A program made the translations under genes and the position numbers. This document shows, in pieces, positions 2,925 through 8,734 of a stretch of DNA of 13,566 nt. Under the pieces are notes generated by a model. The model was not told where the DNA came from and did no database searches. It saw only the letters and a list, made by a program, of their open reading frames with translations. Origin of the DNA: a virus; IMG/VR virus record IMGVR_UViG_3300035698_008634, one strand, 5' to 3'. How positions within the stretch are numbered: position 1 is the first letter of the stretch; each line of letters begins with the position of its first letter.

Positions 2925-3368
2925 ATGTTACATTTTAAAGAATTGAATTATCTGAATATTATAAAATTGTATTACTTTCTGGTGAGAAACAAAAACGATT
3001 TTAATTTATTTCATCCACACGAATATAATATGAATTCTTTATTCAGAAATATTCACAACAAAAAAGATTTTTTTGTTTGTTTATTTTATAAAAATAAAAT
3101 TGTTGGTTATGGTATGCTAAGAGGATGGAAGGAAGGATATGATATACCCTCTTTAGGGATAATGATAGATAAAGATTATAGAGGAATGGGTTTATCAAAA
3201 ATTTTGATGGAATATTTACACATAATTTGTAAATTTAAGAAATGTGATCGTGTTATGTTGAAAGTTGCAAAAAATAATGAAAGTGCCATAAATTTATATA
3301 AAAAATTAGAATATGAACTTGATAATTATAATGAAGTATTTATGATTGGGTACAAAAAAATAAAATAA
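2925..3368 (+). CDS. GNAT-family N-acetyltransferase, probably a sugar N-acetyltransferase.
   Basis: The ORF track starts at GTG 2916; the in-frame ATG at 2925 (MLHFKELNY...), preceded by GGTGA, is preferred. Acetyl-CoA binding motif A region VGYGMLRGWKEGYDIPSLGIMIDKDYRGMGLSKILMEYL (R-G-x-G-x-S) is followed by a C-terminal AINLYKKLEY, the typical GNAT beta-alpha C-terminus. About 147 aa, a normal GNAT size. Confidence 0.75.
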   Translation: MLHFKELNYLNIIKLYYFLVRNKNDFNLFHPHEYNMNSLFRNIHNKKDFFVCLFYKNKIVGYGMLRGWKEGYDIPSLGIMIDKDYRGMGLSKILMEYLHIICKFKKCDRVMLKVAKNNESAINLYKKLEYELDNYNEVFMIGYKKIK

Positions 3369-3370
3369 AT

Positions 3371-4405
3371 ATGAATAAAAATTGTATAATCATAACATCT
3401 TATCCATCAACTGAATATAAACTAAATGTTTTGAAAAAATCTTTGAATTCTATAAAGATTTTGAAAGATAAATTTGATATCGTTTTGTGTTCACAATATC
3501 CCGTCACGGATAAAGAAATTCTTTCCTCTGTTGATTATTTTTTATATGATAATGATGATATTGAAAGTTTTTATAATTACGGTGATGTACATACCTACGA
3601 TTTTCATTGGCGATTTGGTATAGATAATATACAATTTACGGATATTTTTGATAATACATATCATTTTATGTTATGGAAATTAATATACATGGGATTGAAT
3701 TTCTCAGATTCTATGGGGTATGATTTTTTCTACTATATGGAAGGTGATTTTGAAATATTGTCAGAAAATTTTTCGGATAAAATTATAAAATTGAAACAAA
3801 ATATGATTGAAAAAGAAAAAGAAATTATTTTGTTTAATTTGCAACACGATAAAGATGAAGATATAGATTTTTTTCTGGGTGTTTTATGGGGTGGTAAAAT
3901 TAAAAGATTCTTGAAAAATGATATTCCCATTAATAAAGAAGATTGGGTAAATGATAATTTTTATACATCTCACCCACTTGAATATATAATGTATCAAAAA
4001 ATTTATCAAAAATCAAAAGATAAAATTGACAAAATTTATTTTGAAGATGGATTATCTATTCTAAGAGATGATGAAATTATTTTAAATAAATTACATTGTT
4101 TAAGTGGATTGAAAACTTTATTTTATTTTGATAAAACACAACCAGAAATATTGTATGTTTTTTTGAATAACAATCAACCAAATAAAAAAACAATAAAAAT
4201 TTATTTTGATGATCTTCTATTTTTGGATAAGGTTTTTAACCCCAATGAATATTATTCGAATGTTGTGTCCATAAAAGATGTCCTGAATAAACAAGTGAAA
4301 TGGACTATATATGATGATGATGTGATATTTTTTGAGAAATCTTTTTATTTGGATGAAAATAGACTTGAAAATGTTAAAAGAAAGGGGTTAATATTATATA
4401 TTTAA
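3371..4405 (+). CDS. Hypothetical protein, 344 aa. Possible GT-A-fold glycosyltransferase.
   Basis: Long ATG-initiated ORF that starts 2 nt after the GNAT stop. Its N-terminus NCIIITSYPSTEYKLNVLKKSLNSIKILKDKFDIVLCSQ resembles the first beta-alpha-beta of nucleotide-diphospho-sugar transferases, and several acidic DxD-like motifs are present (YDNDD, YDDDV). I recognise no firm family. Confidence 0.6.
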   Translation: MNKNCIIITSYPSTEYKLNVLKKSLNSIKILKDKFDIVLCSQYPVTDKEILSSVDYFLYDNDDIESFYNYGDVHTYDFHWRFGIDNIQFTDIFDNTYHFMLWKLIYMGLNFSDSMGYDFFYYMEGDFEILSENFSDKIIKLKQNMIEKEKEIILFNLQHDKDEDIDFFLGVLWGGKIKRFLKNDIPINKEDWVNDNFYTSHPLEYIMYQKIYQKSKDKIDKIYFEDGLSILRDDEIILNKLHCLSGLKTLFYFDKTQPEILYVFLNNNQPNKKTIKIYFDDLLFLDKVFNPNEYYSNVVSIKDVLNKQVKWTIYDDDVIFFEKSFYLDENRLENVKRKGLILYI

Positions 4406-4449
4406 AACATTTACCTCATTCTTTTTTATAAATAAAAACAATAAATAAA

Positions 4450-4752
4450 ATGGCTGATACATTAGGTGGTTTAATTGATAAATTATTAACCGTTGATTTA
4501 AAAATGTGGAATAATCAAGAGACATTATATCAAATAAGAAAAATGACTTTTGATGAATATAAGACGAAATATTTCGACACTGAAGATGGTGCGAAAATTT
4601 TATGGGAACAATTAAAAAAAGCAACAGATCTTAATTTTCAAAGGAATCAATTAATTGATGAAATCGATGATTTAATTGTCACTATGATTGAGAAAGGTGC
4701 CGATAAAGAAAGTTTGGAACCTTTTATCCAACGAAAACATAAGACATATTAA
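4450..4752 (+). CDS. Hypothetical small acidic protein, 100 aa.
   Basis: ATG-initiated ORF that fills the gap between neighbouring genes on the same strand. Predicted helical (LIDKLLTVDLKMWNNQETLYQIRKM...). No family recognised. Confidence 0.5.
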   Translation: MADTLGGLIDKLLTVDLKMWNNQETLYQIRKMTFDEYKTKYFDTEDGAKILWEQLKKATDLNFQRNQLIDEIDDLIVTMIEKGADKESLEPFIQRKHKTY

Positions 4753-6237: not shown

Positions 6238-6557
6238 TGAAACCACTAAAAAATGAATTAACGGTTGTTGGTACAATAACATCGAAACAAATCAGAGATT
6301 GTTTGGTTGATTTGGCCAGACAACCATTTGGTTGTTGTGTTAGATATAAAGATGGGACATTTCATCAGGTTACAATAGATTCAAATGATGAAATAAAAAT
6401 AGAAGATTATGATCCTTGGTTTGAATGTGAAAATGAAAACGAATTGAAAAAATACATAGAAACAAACAATGAGGAATTTTATAATTTTGTAAGATGGCAA
6501 GAGTTACAGAACATATTTGATGATGAGGAAATAAATGATGACATTTTTGAAAAATAA
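6237..6557 (+). CDS. Hypothetical acidic protein, 106 aa.
   Basis: ATG ORF translationally coupled to the upstream ORF through a TAATG overlap. Glu/Asp-rich C-terminus. No family recognised. Confidence 0.45.
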   Translation: MKPLKNELTVVGTITSKQIRDCLVDLARQPFGCCVRYKDGTFHQVTIDSNDEIKIEDYDPWFECENENELKKYIETNNEEFYNFVRWQELQNIFDDEEINDDIFEK

Positions 6558-6720
6558 ATATAGTATGGATAAAAATTTTACACCATATTGGGATATTGTA
6601 GAGAAGAAATCAGAATTTATCCCTTTTATAAAATTATCATCATTACCAAAAAAGGTAAGAGTGGGTTTCGGGGGAGGATATTTCTCACGAAGAATTAAAA
6701 AACAAGAATCAGATGAATGA
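6535..6720 (+). CDS. Small hypothetical ORF, 61 aa, uncertain.
   Basis: ATG ORF that overlaps the previous ORF by 23 nt. Its stop overlaps the GMD start as ATGA (6717-6720). Basic, Gly-rich tail ([15 protein letters not shown]). It may be real or may only fill the gap. Confidence 0.3.
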
Positions 6721-7859
6721 AGAAAGCATTAATTACAGGAATAACAGGACAAGATGGGAGTTATCTCGCAGATTTACTGTTAGAAAAAGGTTATGAAGTA
6801 CATGGAATAATCAGACGTTCTAGTTCTTTTAACACACAAAGATTGGAACATATTTATCATAATCCAAACTTAAAATTACATTACGGGGATGTTACTGATA
6901 GTATATCTTTAGATAGCATCATAAGTAAATTAAAACCAGAAGAAATTTATAATTTATCTGCACAATCACATGTTGCTGTTAGTTTTGAAATTCCCGAATA
7001 TACTGGTCAGGTTGATGCACTCGGTGTACTGAAATTATTGGAAATTGTTAAAAAACATTGTCCCACAGCAAAAATTTATCAAGCTTCAACAAGTGAATTG
7101 TTTGGTAAAGTTCAAGAAGTTCCCCAAAAAGAAACTACACCATTCTATCCACGTAGTCCTTATGGTGTTGCAAAACTATACGCATATTGGATATGTAGAA
7201 ATTATAGAGAGTCATATGGTCTTTTTATATCAAATGGTATATTATTTAATCACGAATCAGAAAGAAGGGGTGAAACGTTTGTCACAAGAAAGATAACAAA
7301 GGGGTTGACGAATTGGTATAAGACAGGTGAACCAATTAAACTTGGTAATTTAGATGCACGAAGAGATTGGGGATACGCGAAAGAGTATGTTGAGGTTATG
7401 TATTTGATGTTACAACAGGATGAACCTGATGATTTTGTAATATCGACAGGAGAAGCACATTCTAACAGAGAATTTGTAGAAGAAGCATTCCAATATATGA
7501 ATCATGGAAAACTAACATGGGTGGGTGAAGGTTTAGATGAAAAGGGTGTTGATGAAAAAGGGAATGATGTTGTGTTAACAGATCCCAGATATTTGAGACC
7601 ATCTGATGTGGAATTGTTAGTGGGAGATTCTACTAAAATAAAAGAAATGTTGGGTTGGGAAGCGAAAGTTAAATTTAAAGAGTTGGTTAAAATTATGATG
7701 TTACATGATCTGGGTGATATTGTTAAAAACAATGAAGAAAATAAATCATGTGATGATTATAGAGAAACCATGTTTAATGCATGGAAAAATAAAGAAGGAG
7801 ATAAATTTGAAGAGTTGGTTAAAGGGTGGATAAAAAAAGAGAAAGAGGAAAATAAATGA
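6717..7859 (+). CDS. gmd: GDP-mannose 4,6-dehydratase (EC 4.2.1.47).
   Basis: The N-terminus [48 protein letters not shown] is the near-invariant GMD Rossmann/TGxxGxxG signature. The catalytic SDR triad region is conserved (STSELFG ... [22 protein letters not shown] with YxxxK), followed by [18 protein letters not shown]. It carries a C-terminal Lys/Glu-rich extension of about 45 aa and a 15-nt tandem duplication at 7536-7565. Confidence 0.95.
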
Positions 7860-8734
7860 AAACATTATCTAAAAAAGATTTTTATGTGAGAGTTGAAAAA
7901 GATGATACTAGAATTCTTATAAATTCGGTGGATCAAAGTGATGCAGATGGCAACACACATTTGAATCAAAATATTAAAATACATTTTGTTCATAATAATG
8001 TTGATAGATATGTTGCTGGTTGGTGGAATTTTTCTAGACCAACCCATTTACATTGGGCAATTCCTTTTGGTGGATACACCAATGTAAATGATGATATAAT
8101 TTTAAAATTTTATAATGATAAAGATGAATATCTTTTTGATATTGATGTTCCAAAAAGATATGGTGGTCATATTTATAATCAAATAGATGGTTGGTTTGAT
8201 TTCCAAGATGTTTATTCGAACATTGTTAAAGGTGCAAAAGATGGTGATCATTTTGTAGAAATTGGTGCTTGGTTGGGAAGATCCACATCTTTTATGTCGA
8301 CAGAGATCAAAAATTCTGGTAAAAACATAAAATTTGATGTTATTGATACTTGGGGGGGTTCAAATGAAATATATCATAATGATTTCATAAAAAATCAGGG
8401 AAGTGTTTATGATCATTTTTTAGAAAACACATCATCACTTAAAGAGTATATAAACCCAATAATAGAATGTTCTTATATAGCACCTAAACATTATGAGGAT
8501 GAATCTTTAGATTTTGTTTATATAGACGCTGATCATACATATGAAATTGTAAAGAAGGATATAGAATCTTGGTATCCAAAGGTGAAAATTGGTGGTATTC
8601 TCGCAGGTCATGATTATTATAATTCTAATCAAGTCATAAGAGCTGTTGGTGAGACTATTGGTCAGAGTAATATCACAACTAATAGGTTATCATGGTTACA
8701 TCACAAAAAAAGTTCTGAATTACCAAAAAAATAA
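7856..8734 (+). CDS. Class I SAM-dependent methyltransferase (Methyltransf_24/TylF-MycF-like). Probably a sugar O-methyltransferase, with an N-terminal extension of about 95 aa.
   Basis: [20 protein letters not shown] (SAM motif I), [47 protein letters not shown]. This is a paralogue of the N-terminal domain of the minus-strand protein. Its ATG overlaps the GMD stop as ATGA, and AAGAGGA lies 6 nt upstream. Confidence 0.8.

What the first reader, a model, noticed from the sequence alone, without database searches (positions are those of the whole stretch)
2925..8734. Gene set predicts synthesis of a GDP-4-amino-4,6-dideoxyhexose (perosamine-type), N-acetylated and O-methylated, which is not a standard repertoire
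GMD (6717..7859) converts GDP-mannose to GDP-4-keto-6-deoxy-D-mannose. The only in-window consumer of that intermediate is the DegT-family PLP aminotransferase (4787..5866). No GMER/fucose-synthase-type second SDR is present. In established pathways this pairing (Gmd plus Per/RfbE) yields GDP-perosamine. The adjacent GNAT (2925..3368) and two class I SAM methyltransferase modules (7856..8734 and the N-terminal domain of the minus-strand gene) suggest N-acetylation and O-methylation, giving a methylated N-acetyl-perosamine-like sugar. At least three glycosyltransferase domains could then transfer it. If the host is a giant virus, a GDP-perosamine route would add to the viral sugar pathways described so far (UDP-viosamine, UDP-RhaNAc, GDP-fucose and GDP-rhamnose). 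If bacterial, it is an O-antigen or capsule-type locus.
Basis: partly seen in the sequence, partly recalled or inferred. Interest (0 to 1): 0.7.

Follow-up and report, generated by a model that had tools for sequence, protein, structure and literature searches.

The report
Huge-phage perosamine-type sugar gene island
The window comes from a relative of the largest known bacteriophages, not from a giant virus or a bacterium, and it carries a gene island that most likely turns host GDP-mannose into an N-acylated perosamine-type amino sugar; the chemistry is ordinary, but next to the aminotransferase sits a very conserved, phage-only 100-residue protein that nobody has characterised.

Summary
GMD (6717..7859) passes NCBI's curated gmd model. 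The DegT protein (4787..5866) keeps the catalytic lysine, so it is an aminotransferase and not a ColD-type dehydratase. Its nearest characterised relatives are the two proven GDP-perosamine synthases (35% and 29% identity), but it belongs to a divergent clade. GNAT and two Methyltransf_24 modules are present, and there is no second SDR in the window.

- Source: six window proteins match the 735-kb 'uncultured phage' LR756501 at 42-75% identity, four of them in conserved order. The 'giant virus or bacterium' choice is therefore wrong.
- GMD to Per-like step: conserved neighbourhoods support it. Of 53 distinct Per-like genes, 25 have GMD nearby, and several have a WbdR/PerB-like acetyltransferase directly upstream.
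- GNAT N-acetylation is plausible. O-methylation of this particular sugar is unproven.
- Relatives carry a ColD orthologue just beyond the giant glycosyltransferase gene, so a second consumer of the GMD product may lie off-window.

New point: orf100 (4450..4752), a helical hairpin, accompanies 46 of the 53 Per-like genes, occurs fused to GNAT domains, and is nearly absent from bacterial genomes.

Verdict: a new variant of a known pathway, of moderate interest.

The parts
2..2827 (-). Giant soluble multidomain protein, cut off by the window start (942 residues visible; N-terminus at 2827). Domains in order: Methyltransf_24, Glyco_tranf_2_4, an unassigned stretch of about 350 residues, then GT2.
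   Evidence: Pfam: PF13578 E=2e-20 (residues 33-159), PF13704 E=5e-16 (211-300), PF00535 E=2e-28 (788-906). The middle segment has no Pfam hit. No TM segment. Orthologues of 1755 and 2195 residues in LR756501 and L102.
2916..3368 (+). GNAT acetyltransferase (the ATG alternative start is at 2925). Candidate N-acetyltransferase of the amino sugar.
   Evidence: PF00583 E=1e-15. Only generic GNAT hits in the PDB and NCBIfam. Homologues of 30-57% identity lie next to orf100/DegT in 6 distinct related loci. GNAT-orf100 fusion proteins exist.
3371..4405 (+). orf344, a rare protein. Possibly a GT-A-fold glycosyltransferase with a C-terminal beta-sandwich.
   Evidence: No Pfam hit. Only 5 homologues in 5.8 billion proteins, all on contigs of related phages. 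AF2 pLDDT 62. Foldseek matches to GT-A enzymes (GpgS, SpsA, glycogenin, PBCV-1 A64R) at E about 1e-4 to 1e-3.
4450..4752 (+). orf100, a phage-restricted, highly conserved helical-hairpin protein with an invariant C-terminal QRKHKTY. Genetically coupled to the Per-like aminotransferase and to N-acyltransferases.
   Evidence: 817 homologues at 56-73% identity with 35 invariant columns. AF2 pLDDT 89, no structural match. Present with 46 of 53 distinct Per-like DegT genes; 24 of 27 orf100-selected loci carry DegT. GNAT fusions. Only 4 loci in 185,579 species genomes. Absent from bacterial loci that carry the same DegT clade.
4787..5866 (+). PLP-dependent DegT-family sugar 4-aminotransferase of the Per-like (GDP-sugar) group, with catalytic Lys179 in the SFFGNK motif.
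   Evidence: PF01041 E=5e-54. Best PDB hit is Caulobacter perosamine synthetase, E=1e-35, against ColD at 3e-18. 35% identity and 176 bits to E. coli O157 Per, against 85 bits for WecE and 61 bits for ArnB. Motif and tree. Per-specific columns.
5938..6557 (+). Two small ORFs of unknown function: orf99 (5938..6237) and orf106 (6237..6557).
   Evidence: No significant family hits. orf106 has a 56%-identical homologue in relative L102.
6717..7859 (+). GDP-mannose 4,6-dehydratase with a K/E-rich C-terminal tail of about 48 residues.
   Evidence: TIGR01472 at 505.6 bits, above the 415 cut-off. PF16363 E=5e-138. 74.5% identity to LR756501.
7856..8734 (+). 292-residue protein: an unassigned N-terminal domain plus a Methyltransf_24 class I SAM methyltransferase. 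Its start overlaps the GMD stop codon (ATGA).
   Evidence: PF13578 E=2e-17, weak TylF hit. The only PDB hit is 6g7d, E=1e-5. 62-68% identical orthologues lie directly after GMD in LR756501 and L102.

Best explanation
This is a glycan-biosynthesis island of a huge bacteriophage related to the 735-kb phage LR756501. That phage belongs to the Mahaphage clade, whose largest members were predicted to infect Bacteroidetes.

Proposed pathway, in order:
1. GMD converts host GDP-mannose to GDP-4-keto-6-deoxy-D-mannose. Family membership is shown; activity is inferred.
2. The Per-like PLP aminotransferase (Lys179) aminates C4 to give GDP-perosamine or a close 4-amino-4,6-dideoxyhexose. This is inferred from homology and conserved neighbourhoods.
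3. The amine is N-acylated, here probably by the GNAT. In sister phages a WbdR/PerB-like hexapeptide acetyltransferase or a formyltransferase takes that place. This is inferred from cassette logic.
4. The phage-specific 100-residue hairpin protein orf100 probably acts as a physical partner of the aminotransferase and/or the acyltransferase. This is inferred from tight linkage and from GNAT fusions; its mechanism is unknown.
5. Soluble GT-A glycosyltransferase domains add the sugar to a glycan, and the attached or neighbouring Methyltransf_24 modules O-methyl-decorate or cap that glycan. This step is speculative.

No export or membrane component is encoded in the window. The acceptor is therefore either a phage or host protein, or a host lipid-linked glycan that host machinery exports.
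For: Source:
- The MVP-like protein (67%), GMD (74.5%), MT292 (62.5%), orf142 (70%), orf173 (52%) and the giant MT-GT protein (42-44%) all match LR756501. The order GMD-MT292-orf142-orf173 is conserved.
- The same order occurs in the L102/L103 contigs.
- Al-Shayeb et al. 2020 place these genomes among huge phages.

GMD: it passes the curated equivalog model.

Aminotransferase:
- The top PDB hit is perosamine synthetase, and the lysine motif is shared with Per.
- E. coli O157 Per is the best characterised match.
- It shares 48% of Per-specific columns against 8% of ArnB/WecE-specific ones.
- Characterised Pers give the same NCBIfam ranking, with LegC family on top and below cut-off, so that hit does not argue against Per.

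Gene context:
- Among 53 distinct Per-like genes, 25 have GMD in the locus and 15 within 1.5 kb. Nineteen have a recognisable N-acyltransferase: 9 hexapeptide type, 6 GNAT, 4 formyltransferase.
- The hexapeptide enzyme directly upstream of orf100-DegT in L097 and in LR756504 is 29-31% identical to WbdR, the E. coli O157 GDP-perosamine N-acetyltransferase.
- LR756501 has an aminotransferase plus a sugar N-formyltransferase in the same slot.

orf100.

Methyltransferases: both modules' only PDB match is 6g7d. From my memory, unverified here, that is a mycobacterial sugar 1-O-methyltransferase. Relatives' MT24 proteins weakly hit RMNT_CmcI, the rhamnosyl O-methyltransferase family.
Against: - Identity to characterised Pers is only 28-35%, no more than Per shares with ArnB. 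The window protein lies on a long separate branch, so neither the nucleotide nor the C4 stereochemistry is fixed by sequence.
- Only about half of the related loci show GMD within 8-10 kb. Two of the four closest DegT relatives examined, L053 and L055, show none.
- The GNAT does not resemble WecD, WbdR or PseH. It is retained in L102 without a Per-like gene nearby.
- MT292 travels with GMD, not with DegT.
- Relatives carry a ColD orthologue beyond the giant glycosyltransferase gene, so part or most of the GMD product may go elsewhere.
- Nothing in the window identifies the acceptor.
Confidence: 0.55

Rival explanations
1. The DegT enzyme does not use the GMD product. It aminates another NDP-4-keto sugar (LegC-like GDP-HexNAc, or a UDP/dTDP-4-keto-6-deoxyhexose made by the host or elsewhere in the phage genome). 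GMD would then feed a different branch outside the window, such as a ColD-type 3-dehydratase leading to colitose-like sugars, or a GMER/RMD reductase.
For: - The top NCBIfam hit is the LegC family.
- Identity to Per is 28-35%, the same as between Per and ArnB.
- GMD is absent near the close relatives L053 and L055.
- ColD orthologues are encoded next to the giant glycosyltransferase gene in relatives L102/L103 and L097.
- GMER-like SDRs occur in 16 of 53 related loci.
Against: - Proven Pers give the same LegC-first NCBIfam ranking.
- No LegB-type or other 4,6-dehydratase is in the window.
- GMD lies within 1.5 kb of the orthologue in 15 distinct loci.
- WbdR-like acetyltransferases sit directly upstream in several loci.
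- The window protein shares Per-specific residues.
Confidence: 0.2
2. GDP-perosamine is made, but the GNAT is not its N-acetyltransferase. It might acetylate a protein, another amine or a hydroxyl, and the amino sugar would be used free or acylated by an enzyme encoded elsewhere.
For: - The GNAT's best matches are protein N-terminal and polyamine acetyltransferases.
- BLAST finds no similarity to WecD or WbdR.
- The orthologue sits next to the giant glycosyltransferase gene in L102, which has ColD rather than a Per-like enzyme nearby.
- The closest DegT relatives use a PglD_N/hexapeptide acetyltransferase instead.
Against: - Window-like GNATs flank orf100/DegT in 6 distinct loci.
- Three independent GNAT-orf100 fusion proteins exist, and a GNAT::GMD fusion occurs in L100.
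- Bacterial members of the DegT clade are followed by GNAT-type acyltransferases.
- GNAT-fold sugar N-acyltransferases are known (WecD, PseH, FdhC; my own knowledge).
Confidence: 0.3
3. The window is a bacterial O-antigen or capsule locus, or a piece of a eukaryotic giant virus.
For: - The gene content looks like an O-antigen locus.
- The low GC (28%) and a eukaryote-type major vault protein homologue could suggest a giant virus.
- Bacteroidia loci hold 53%-identical DegT genes.
Against: - The best matches, with conserved gene order, are to curated huge-phage genomes.
- No Wzx, Wzy, ABC transporter or initiating transferase is present, and the only predicted TM segment is in the non-sugar orf137.
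- orf100 is practically absent from 185,579 prokaryotic species genomes.
- The Mimiviridae AAAATTGA promoter motif is under-represented: 2 matches against 6.9 expected.
Confidence: 0.04

Closest known systems
Bacterial Gmd-Per(RfbE)-PerB/WbdR pathway to GDP-N-acetyl-D-perosamine (E. coli O157, Caulobacter crescentus; also V. cholerae O1 and Brucella with other N-acyl groups)
   Same: - A true GMD is paired with a lysine-type DegT aminotransferase whose nearest characterised relatives are Per.
- An N-acyltransferase is encoded nearby.
- Sister phage loci even carry a WbdR-like hexapeptide acetyltransferase.
   Different: - The aminotransferase is only 28-35% identical to proven Pers and forms a separate clade, mostly phage-borne.
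- The acyltransferase here is a GNAT, not a left-handed beta-helix enzyme.
- An extra phage-only protein, orf100, is inserted next to the aminotransferase.
- No ManB/ManC, Wzx/Wzy or ABC transporter is present.
- The host of the genes is a huge phage.
Mimivirus UDP-viosamine pathway, which makes 2-O-methyl-N-acetylviosamine of the fibril glycans (Chem Rev 2022, PMC9614988)
   Same: - It is a virus-encoded route of 4,6-dehydratase, 4-aminotransferase, N-acetyltransferase and O-methylation.
- The predicted product here would be the C2 epimer of that sugar.
   Different: - The nucleotide is GDP, not UDP, and the starting sugar is mannose, not glucose.
- The enzymes are not orthologous.
- The virus is a bacteriophage, and its glycan and acceptor are unknown.
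GDP-colitose pathway enzyme ColD (GDP-4-keto-6-deoxymannose 3-dehydratase)
   Same: - It has the same fold and the same presumed substrate.
- A real ColD orthologue (E=1e-66) is encoded in related phages near the same giant glycosyltransferase gene.
   Different: The window protein keeps the Schiff-base lysine (SFFGNK), whereas ColD-type proteins have His (SFFYGHH in L102). It scores 69 bits against ColD and 127 bits against Per.
Terminal or decorating sugar O-methyltransferases coupled to soluble polymerising glycosyltransferases (V. cholerae WbeT 2-O-methyl-perosamine cap, PMC9728160 abstract; E. coli O9a WbdD and mycobacterial MeT1 from my own knowledge)
   Same: - SAM methyltransferase modules are fused to, or lie next to, soluble GT-A domains.
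- Both modules' only PDB match is 6g7d.
   Different: - The similarity is weak (E=1e-5 to 3e-6).
- The substrate and position of methylation are unknown.
- MT292 co-varies with GMD rather than with the aminotransferase.
Cyanophage and other phage GMD (+GMER) auxiliary genes
   Same: GMD is found in 236 phage records.
   Different: Those phages pair GMD with GDP-fucose synthase. Per-like DegT above 40% identity occurs in only one record of that collection of deposited phage genomes, the 636-kb LR756504.

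Membership tests
[quoted passage not shown] | Scores above the curated equivalog cut-off; SDR catalytic Thr/Glu and YxxxK motifs and the NADP-binding GxxGxxG motif. | tested here: met
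   TIGR01472 at 505.6 bits against a 415 cut-off. [17 protein letters not shown] and [15 protein letters not shown] can be read in the translation.
GDP-perosamine synthase (Per/RfbE) | DegT/fold-type I PLP enzyme with the Schiff-base lysine. | tested here: met
   PF01041 E=5e-54. Lys179 in SFFGNK aligns with the lysine of both characterised Pers.
GDP-perosamine synthase (Per/RfbE) | Groups with biochemically proven Pers, to the exclusion of enzymes of other specificity. | tested here: inconclusive
   Pers are the best characterised hits, and 26 of 54 Per-specific columns are shared. However, identity is 28-35%, the neighbour-joining branch is long, and only four reference enzymes were available. 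LegC, PseC and ColD were not in the tree.
GDP-perosamine synthase (Per/RfbE) | Genetically coupled to GMD. | tested here: met
   GMD lies 850 bp downstream on the same strand in the window. It lies within 1.5 kb of the orthologue in 15 of 53 distinct related loci and is present in 25 of 53.
GDP-perosamine synthase (Per/RfbE) | Converts GDP-4-keto-6-deoxy-D-mannose to GDP-D-perosamine. | not testable with these tools
   Needs an enzyme assay with LC-MS or NMR.
ColD/E1-type PMP-dependent 3-dehydratases | Histidine replaces the Schiff-base lysine. | tested here: not met
   The window protein has Lys. By contrast, the L102/L097 paralogue has His-His and hits ColD at E=1e-66.
PerB/WbdR-type GDP-perosamine N-acetyltransferase | Left-handed beta-helix (hexapeptide) fold with a PglD_N-type N-domain. 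| tested here: not met
   No hexapeptide protein is in the window, and the candidate is a GNAT. WbdR-like enzymes occupy the equivalent slot in sister loci.
Sugar O-methyltransferase | Class I SAM fold with specific similarity to characterised sugar O-methyltransferases. | tested here: inconclusive
   Methyltransf_24 is met. The only other support is weak: a 6g7d hit at E=1e-5 and a sub-threshold TylF hit.
Huge phage of the LR756501 (Mahaphage-type) lineage | Several proteins are most similar to that genome, with conserved gene order. | tested here: met
   Six proteins match at 42-75% identity, and GMD-MT292-orf142-orf173 is collinear. No phage structural gene is in the window itself.
Bacterial O-antigen or capsule locus | Wzx/Wzy or ABC transporter, initiating phosphoglycosyltransferase, and membrane proteins. 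| tested here: not met
   None are detected. The only predicted TM segment is in the non-sugar orf137.
Nucleocytoplasmic giant virus (Mimiviridae-like) | Giant-virus relatives and the AAAATTGA early promoter motif upstream of genes. | tested here: not met
   The motif occurs twice against 6.9 expected, both times inside orf344. The best relatives are huge phages.

The most novel reading that the evidence does not exclude
orf100 is an obligatory, phage-specific third component of the amino-sugar module. It would be a helical-hairpin subunit that docks the Per-like aminotransferase to whichever N-acyltransferase the phage carries (GNAT, hexapeptide type or formyltransferase), channelling or gating GDP-perosamine. 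With this module, huge phages would build their own methylated N-acyl-perosamine glycan on virion or host-surface targets. That would be a bacteriophage counterpart of the Mimivirus 2-O-methyl-N-acetylviosamine fibril glycan.
Probability: 0.2. Interest if true: 0.7.

Novelty: new variant of a known kind. Interest (0 to 1): 0.45.

Why it matters
If the prediction holds, phages with the largest known genomes carry a self-contained route to a rare bacterial-type amino sugar. Closely related phages swap the step after GMD: Per-like aminotransferase here, ColD in some relatives, and an aminotransferase plus N-formyltransferase in LR756501. That pattern points to diversifying selection on a phage-directed glycan, which bears on host range, superinfection exclusion and virion decoration.

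The more useful lead is orf100. It forms a family of hundreds of near-identical-length proteins with 35 invariant positions, is almost confined to phage contigs, and is tied to a sugar aminotransferase. It has no known function and is small enough to test quickly.

The chemistry itself (Gmd plus Per) is textbook. Perosamine synthetase already appears in automated lists of viral auxiliary genes.

Tried and rejected
- Exact look-up of the window DegT protein in the assembly collection: not on record. Only a 1.4-kb ENA fragment of the same sequence was found through orf100, so the flanks of the window could not be recovered.
- Mimiviridae promoter motif AAAATTGA: under-represented, so rejected as a giant-virus sign.
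- PHROGs scan of the unknown ORFs: nothing informative.
- Sigma-70 promoter and terminator scans: not above shuffled controls, so they were not used for operon calls.
- tRNA and Rfam scans: empty.
- orf100 fold search against the PDB: no match below E=1, only generic helical hairpins.
- orf100's recurrent weak Pfam hits (DUF4254; N_formyltrans_C in 32 of 37 members). I tested these by profile comparison with the N-formyltransferase of LR756501. The result was probability 7.9%, so homology is rejected as unsupported.
- Literature on DUF4254 and on PDB entry 6G7D: nothing usable. The identity of 6g7d as a sugar O-methyltransferase therefore rests on my memory.
- The LegC-family top hit was considered as evidence against Per. 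It was rejected after the control showed that proven Pers give the same ranking.
- A broader phylogeny with LegC, PseC, ColD and DesI could not be built, because their sequences were not retrievable with these tools.

Full report
**1. What is in the window**

The window is AT-rich (28% GC). It holds one long minus-strand gene (2..2827) that runs off the left end, followed by a co-directional plus-strand array from 2916 to 13491.
- GMD, 6717..7859: PF16363 E=5e-138. It passes NCBI's curated 'gmd' equivalog at 505.6 bits against a 415 cut-off.
- DegT-family protein, 4787..5866: PF01041 E=5e-54.
- GNAT, 2916/2925..3368.
- Methyltransf_24 modules: the C-terminal half of the 7856..8734 product, and the N-terminus of the minus-strand protein.
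- Glycosyltransferase domains: that minus-strand protein also has Glyco_tranf_2_4 and GT2 domains.

No other SDR is detectable. None of the sugar genes has a predicted TM segment. Pfam verifies only two glycosyltransferase domains. A third is at best suggested for orf344, from a low-confidence model (pLDDT 62) with weak GT-A matches.

**2. Where it comes from**

Neither fits.
- The MVP-like protein (67%), GMD (74.5%), the GMD-adjacent methyltransferase (62.5%), orf142 (70%), orf173 (52%) and the giant MT-GT protein (42-44%) all find their best annotated-collection matches in LR756501.1, the 735-kb 'uncultured phage'. The order GMD-MT292-orf142-orf173 is conserved there.
- That genome is the largest of the curated huge phages of Al-Shayeb et al. 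2020. [quoted passage not shown]
- A second set of relatives, the L102/L103 contigs of 94-98 kb, shares GNAT (54%), orf344 (67%), orf106, GMD, MT292 (68%), orf142 (73%) and orf173 (83%) in the same order.
- The Mimiviridae promoter motif is not enriched. No bacterial export genes are present.

**3. The aminotransferase**

- The best solved relative is Caulobacter perosamine synthetase (E=1e-35, 127 bits). This is well ahead of ColD (69 bits), WecE-type, PseC-type and ArnB-type enzymes.
- I fetched characterised E. coli enzymes for comparison. O157 Per gives 35% identity over the full length (176 bits) and Caulobacter Per 29% (141 bits). WecE gives 85 bits and ArnB 61 bits.
- The Schiff-base lysine is present in an SFFGNK motif that is identical to both Pers and different from ArnB and WecE. 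This rules out ColD-type dehydratase chemistry.
- Take the alignment columns where the two Pers agree and both ArnB and WecE differ. The window protein matches the Pers in 26 of these 54. It matches only 3 of the 36 columns of the converse kind.
- The top NCBIfam hit is 'LegC family', below its cut-off. The two proven Pers give the same ranking, so this only reflects the absence of a Per model.
- Caveat: the two Pers are 47% identical to each other and 34-36% identical to ArnB. The 28-35% seen here therefore does not settle specificity by itself. The window protein belongs to a separate clade.

**4. Gene context as functional evidence**

- The clade is large: 3527 hits at E<=1e-10, which JGI's automatic naming calls 'perosamine synthetase'. 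At 40% identity or more it is found mostly on AT-rich, phage-like contigs.
- After removing duplicates I had 53 distinct Per-like genes with flanks. Of these, 25 have a GMD in the locus and 15 have it within 1.5 kb. Nineteen have a recognisable N-acyltransferase: 9 hexapeptide/PglD_N type, 6 GNAT, 4 formyltransferase. Sixteen have a GMER-like SDR.
- In L097 and in the 636-kb phage LR756504 the order is acetyltransferase, orf100, DegT. That acetyltransferase is 29-31% identical to WbdR, the E. coli O157 GDP-perosamine N-acetyltransferase.
- Bacterial members of the clade (Bacteroidia genome bins, 53% identity, GC 39-44%) sit in Wzx-type loci. There they are followed by GNAT and FemAB-like acyltransferases, with Methyltransf_24 genes nearby.

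Together these results make 'GMD product, then 4-amination, then N-acylation' the best-supported reading.

**5. A variable slot around a conserved core**

GMD-MT292-orf142-orf173 is constant in the three relatives. The enzymes that would consume the GMD product differ.
- LR756501 has a different aminotransferase, a sugar N-formyltransferase (Formyl_trans_N plus N_formyltrans_C), an RMNT_CmcI-like methyltransferase, a GT9 and an FkbM methyltransferase.
- L102/L103 and L097 have a clear ColD orthologue (E=1e-66 to E. coli ColD, with His-His in place of the lysine). It is encoded just beyond the giant glycosyltransferase gene.
- The window has orf100 and the Per-like enzyme.

Two consequences follow.
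- MT292 tracks GMD, not the aminotransferase, so 'O-methyl-perosamine' is not specifically supported.
- A ColD-like gene could lie immediately left of the window, so 'only consumer' is true only within the window.

**6. The GNAT**

- Homology gives nothing specific. Its matches are RimI-like, polyamine and protein N-terminal acetyltransferases, and it shows no similarity to WecD or WbdR.
- In favour of a sugar role: window-like GNATs flank orf100/DegT in six distinct loci. GNAT-orf100 fusion proteins exist. L100 encodes a GNAT::GMD fusion.
- Against: the 54% orthologue in L102 has no Per-like gene within 10 kb.
- I rate this assignment at about even odds.

**7. orf100, the overlooked gene (4450..4752)**

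- It has 817 homologues of 56-73% identity, nearly all 100-102 residues long. There are 35 invariant columns, including the C-terminal QRKHKTY.
- A profile search of 1.84 billion cluster representatives finds only 181 clusters.
- It accompanies 46 of the 53 distinct Per-like genes. Conversely, 24 of 27 loci selected by orf100 carry the aminotransferase, usually adjacent. It is more conserved than the enzyme itself.
- In 185,579 prokaryotic species genomes only four loci appear. All are in genome bins assigned to small-genome candidate lineages (Saccharimonadia, Woesearchaeota, Gracilibacteria) that look like misbinned phage contigs. That scan used only two peptide patterns, which limits its reach.
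- It is absent from the bacterial loci that carry the same aminotransferase clade.
- Three independent cluster representatives are GNAT-orf100 fusions.
- AlphaFold gives a confident helical hairpin (pLDDT 89) with no informative structural neighbour.
- Weak Pfam echoes (DUF4254, N_formyltrans_C) did not survive a profile comparison.
- My reading is that orf100 is a physical partner of the aminotransferase and/or the acyltransferase. This is inference from linkage and fusion only.

**8. What the sugar is for**

The window gives no acceptor. All the enzymes are soluble, and there is no flippase, polymerase, ABC transporter or initiating transferase. Two models fit.
- Cytoplasmic glycosylation of phage (or host) proteins.
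- Elongation and capping of a host lipid-linked glycan that host machinery then exports. The fusion of a methyltransferase to polymerase-like GT-A domains recalls capping systems; the V. cholerae Ogawa 2-O-methyl-perosamine cap is a chemical precedent (PMC9728160, abstract listed).

I cannot discriminate between them.

**9. Comparison with the literature**

- Gmd-Per-PerB chemistry is well established in bacteria.
- The giant-virus literature describes UDP-viosamine, the C2 epimer series, and mentions perosamine only as a bacterial analogue or a tentative mass assignment.
- Perosamine synthetase (K13010) already appears in tables of viral auxiliary genes.
- I found no paper that characterises a phage perosamine route or the orf100 family.

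**10. Verdict**

I classify the system as a new variant of a known kind, for three reasons: it is in a huge phage, a GNAT stands in for the PerB-type enzyme, and there is an additional conserved phage-only partner protein. Interest is moderate at 0.45, driven mainly by orf100 and by the cassette swapping among huge phages rather than by the sugar chemistry.

Noticed in passing
window 11023..13491 (+): An 822-residue homologue of the eukaryotic major vault protein. Pfam gives MVP_shoulder E=7e-26 and Vault_3 E=3e-11. Rat/human MVP matches at E=1e-22 over residues 450-726, and the overall length is close to MVP. Orthologues occur in the 735-kb phage LR756501/LR756503 (67%), in LR756500 (49%) and in one IMG/VR contig. 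The paper library mentions vault proteins for Borgs but not for huge phages. This may be of more interest than the sugar genes.
   Followed up: partly
L102:117-1268 (+) and L097:7969-9126 (-), both contigs of related phages: A clear ColD orthologue (E=1e-66 to E. coli ColD, with His-His replacing the Schiff-base lysine). It is encoded beyond the giant MT-GT gene in relatives. By synteny, an equivalent gene may lie just left of the window start.
   Followed up: yes
L059:8000-14700 (LR756501.1, between the giant MT-GT gene and GMD): The 735-kb phage fills the same slot with a different aminotransferase, a sugar N-formyltransferase, an RMNT_CmcI-like methyltransferase, a GT9 and an FkbM methyltransferase. 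Its giant protein starts with a hexapeptide acyltransferase domain. This is cassette swapping around a constant GMD-MT292 core.
   Followed up: partly
window 9456..9884 and 10373..10894 (+): orf142 and orf173 have no family match but stay downstream of GMD-MT292 in LR756501 (70% and 52%) and in L102 (73% and 83%). They are possibly further, unrecognised members of the module.
   Followed up: no
L100:11555-12943 (+): A 462-residue fusion of a GNAT domain with a GMD-like SDR, followed by a GMER-like SDR and PhoH, on a phage-like contig that also carries orf100 and the Per-like aminotransferase.
   Followed up: no
window 3371..4405 (+): orf344 has only five homologues in 5.8 billion clustered proteins. 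The two whose contigs were examined, P0391 and P0393, lie on contigs of related phages.
   Followed up: partly
window 9940..10353 (+): orf137 has a run of nine serines and a single C-terminal hydrophobic anchor (residues 115-137). It is the only predicted membrane segment in the window.
   Followed up: no
window 8646..9404 (+): The listed TTG start of orf252 overlaps the methyltransferase gene by 89 nt. An internal ATG near 8745 (MEENNNQ...) is the more likely start.
   Followed up: no
L096:8007-8310: In the contig with the closest DegT relative (72%), the orf100 homologue is split into two frames at residue 36/37. This is either a frameshift or an assembly error.
   Followed up: no
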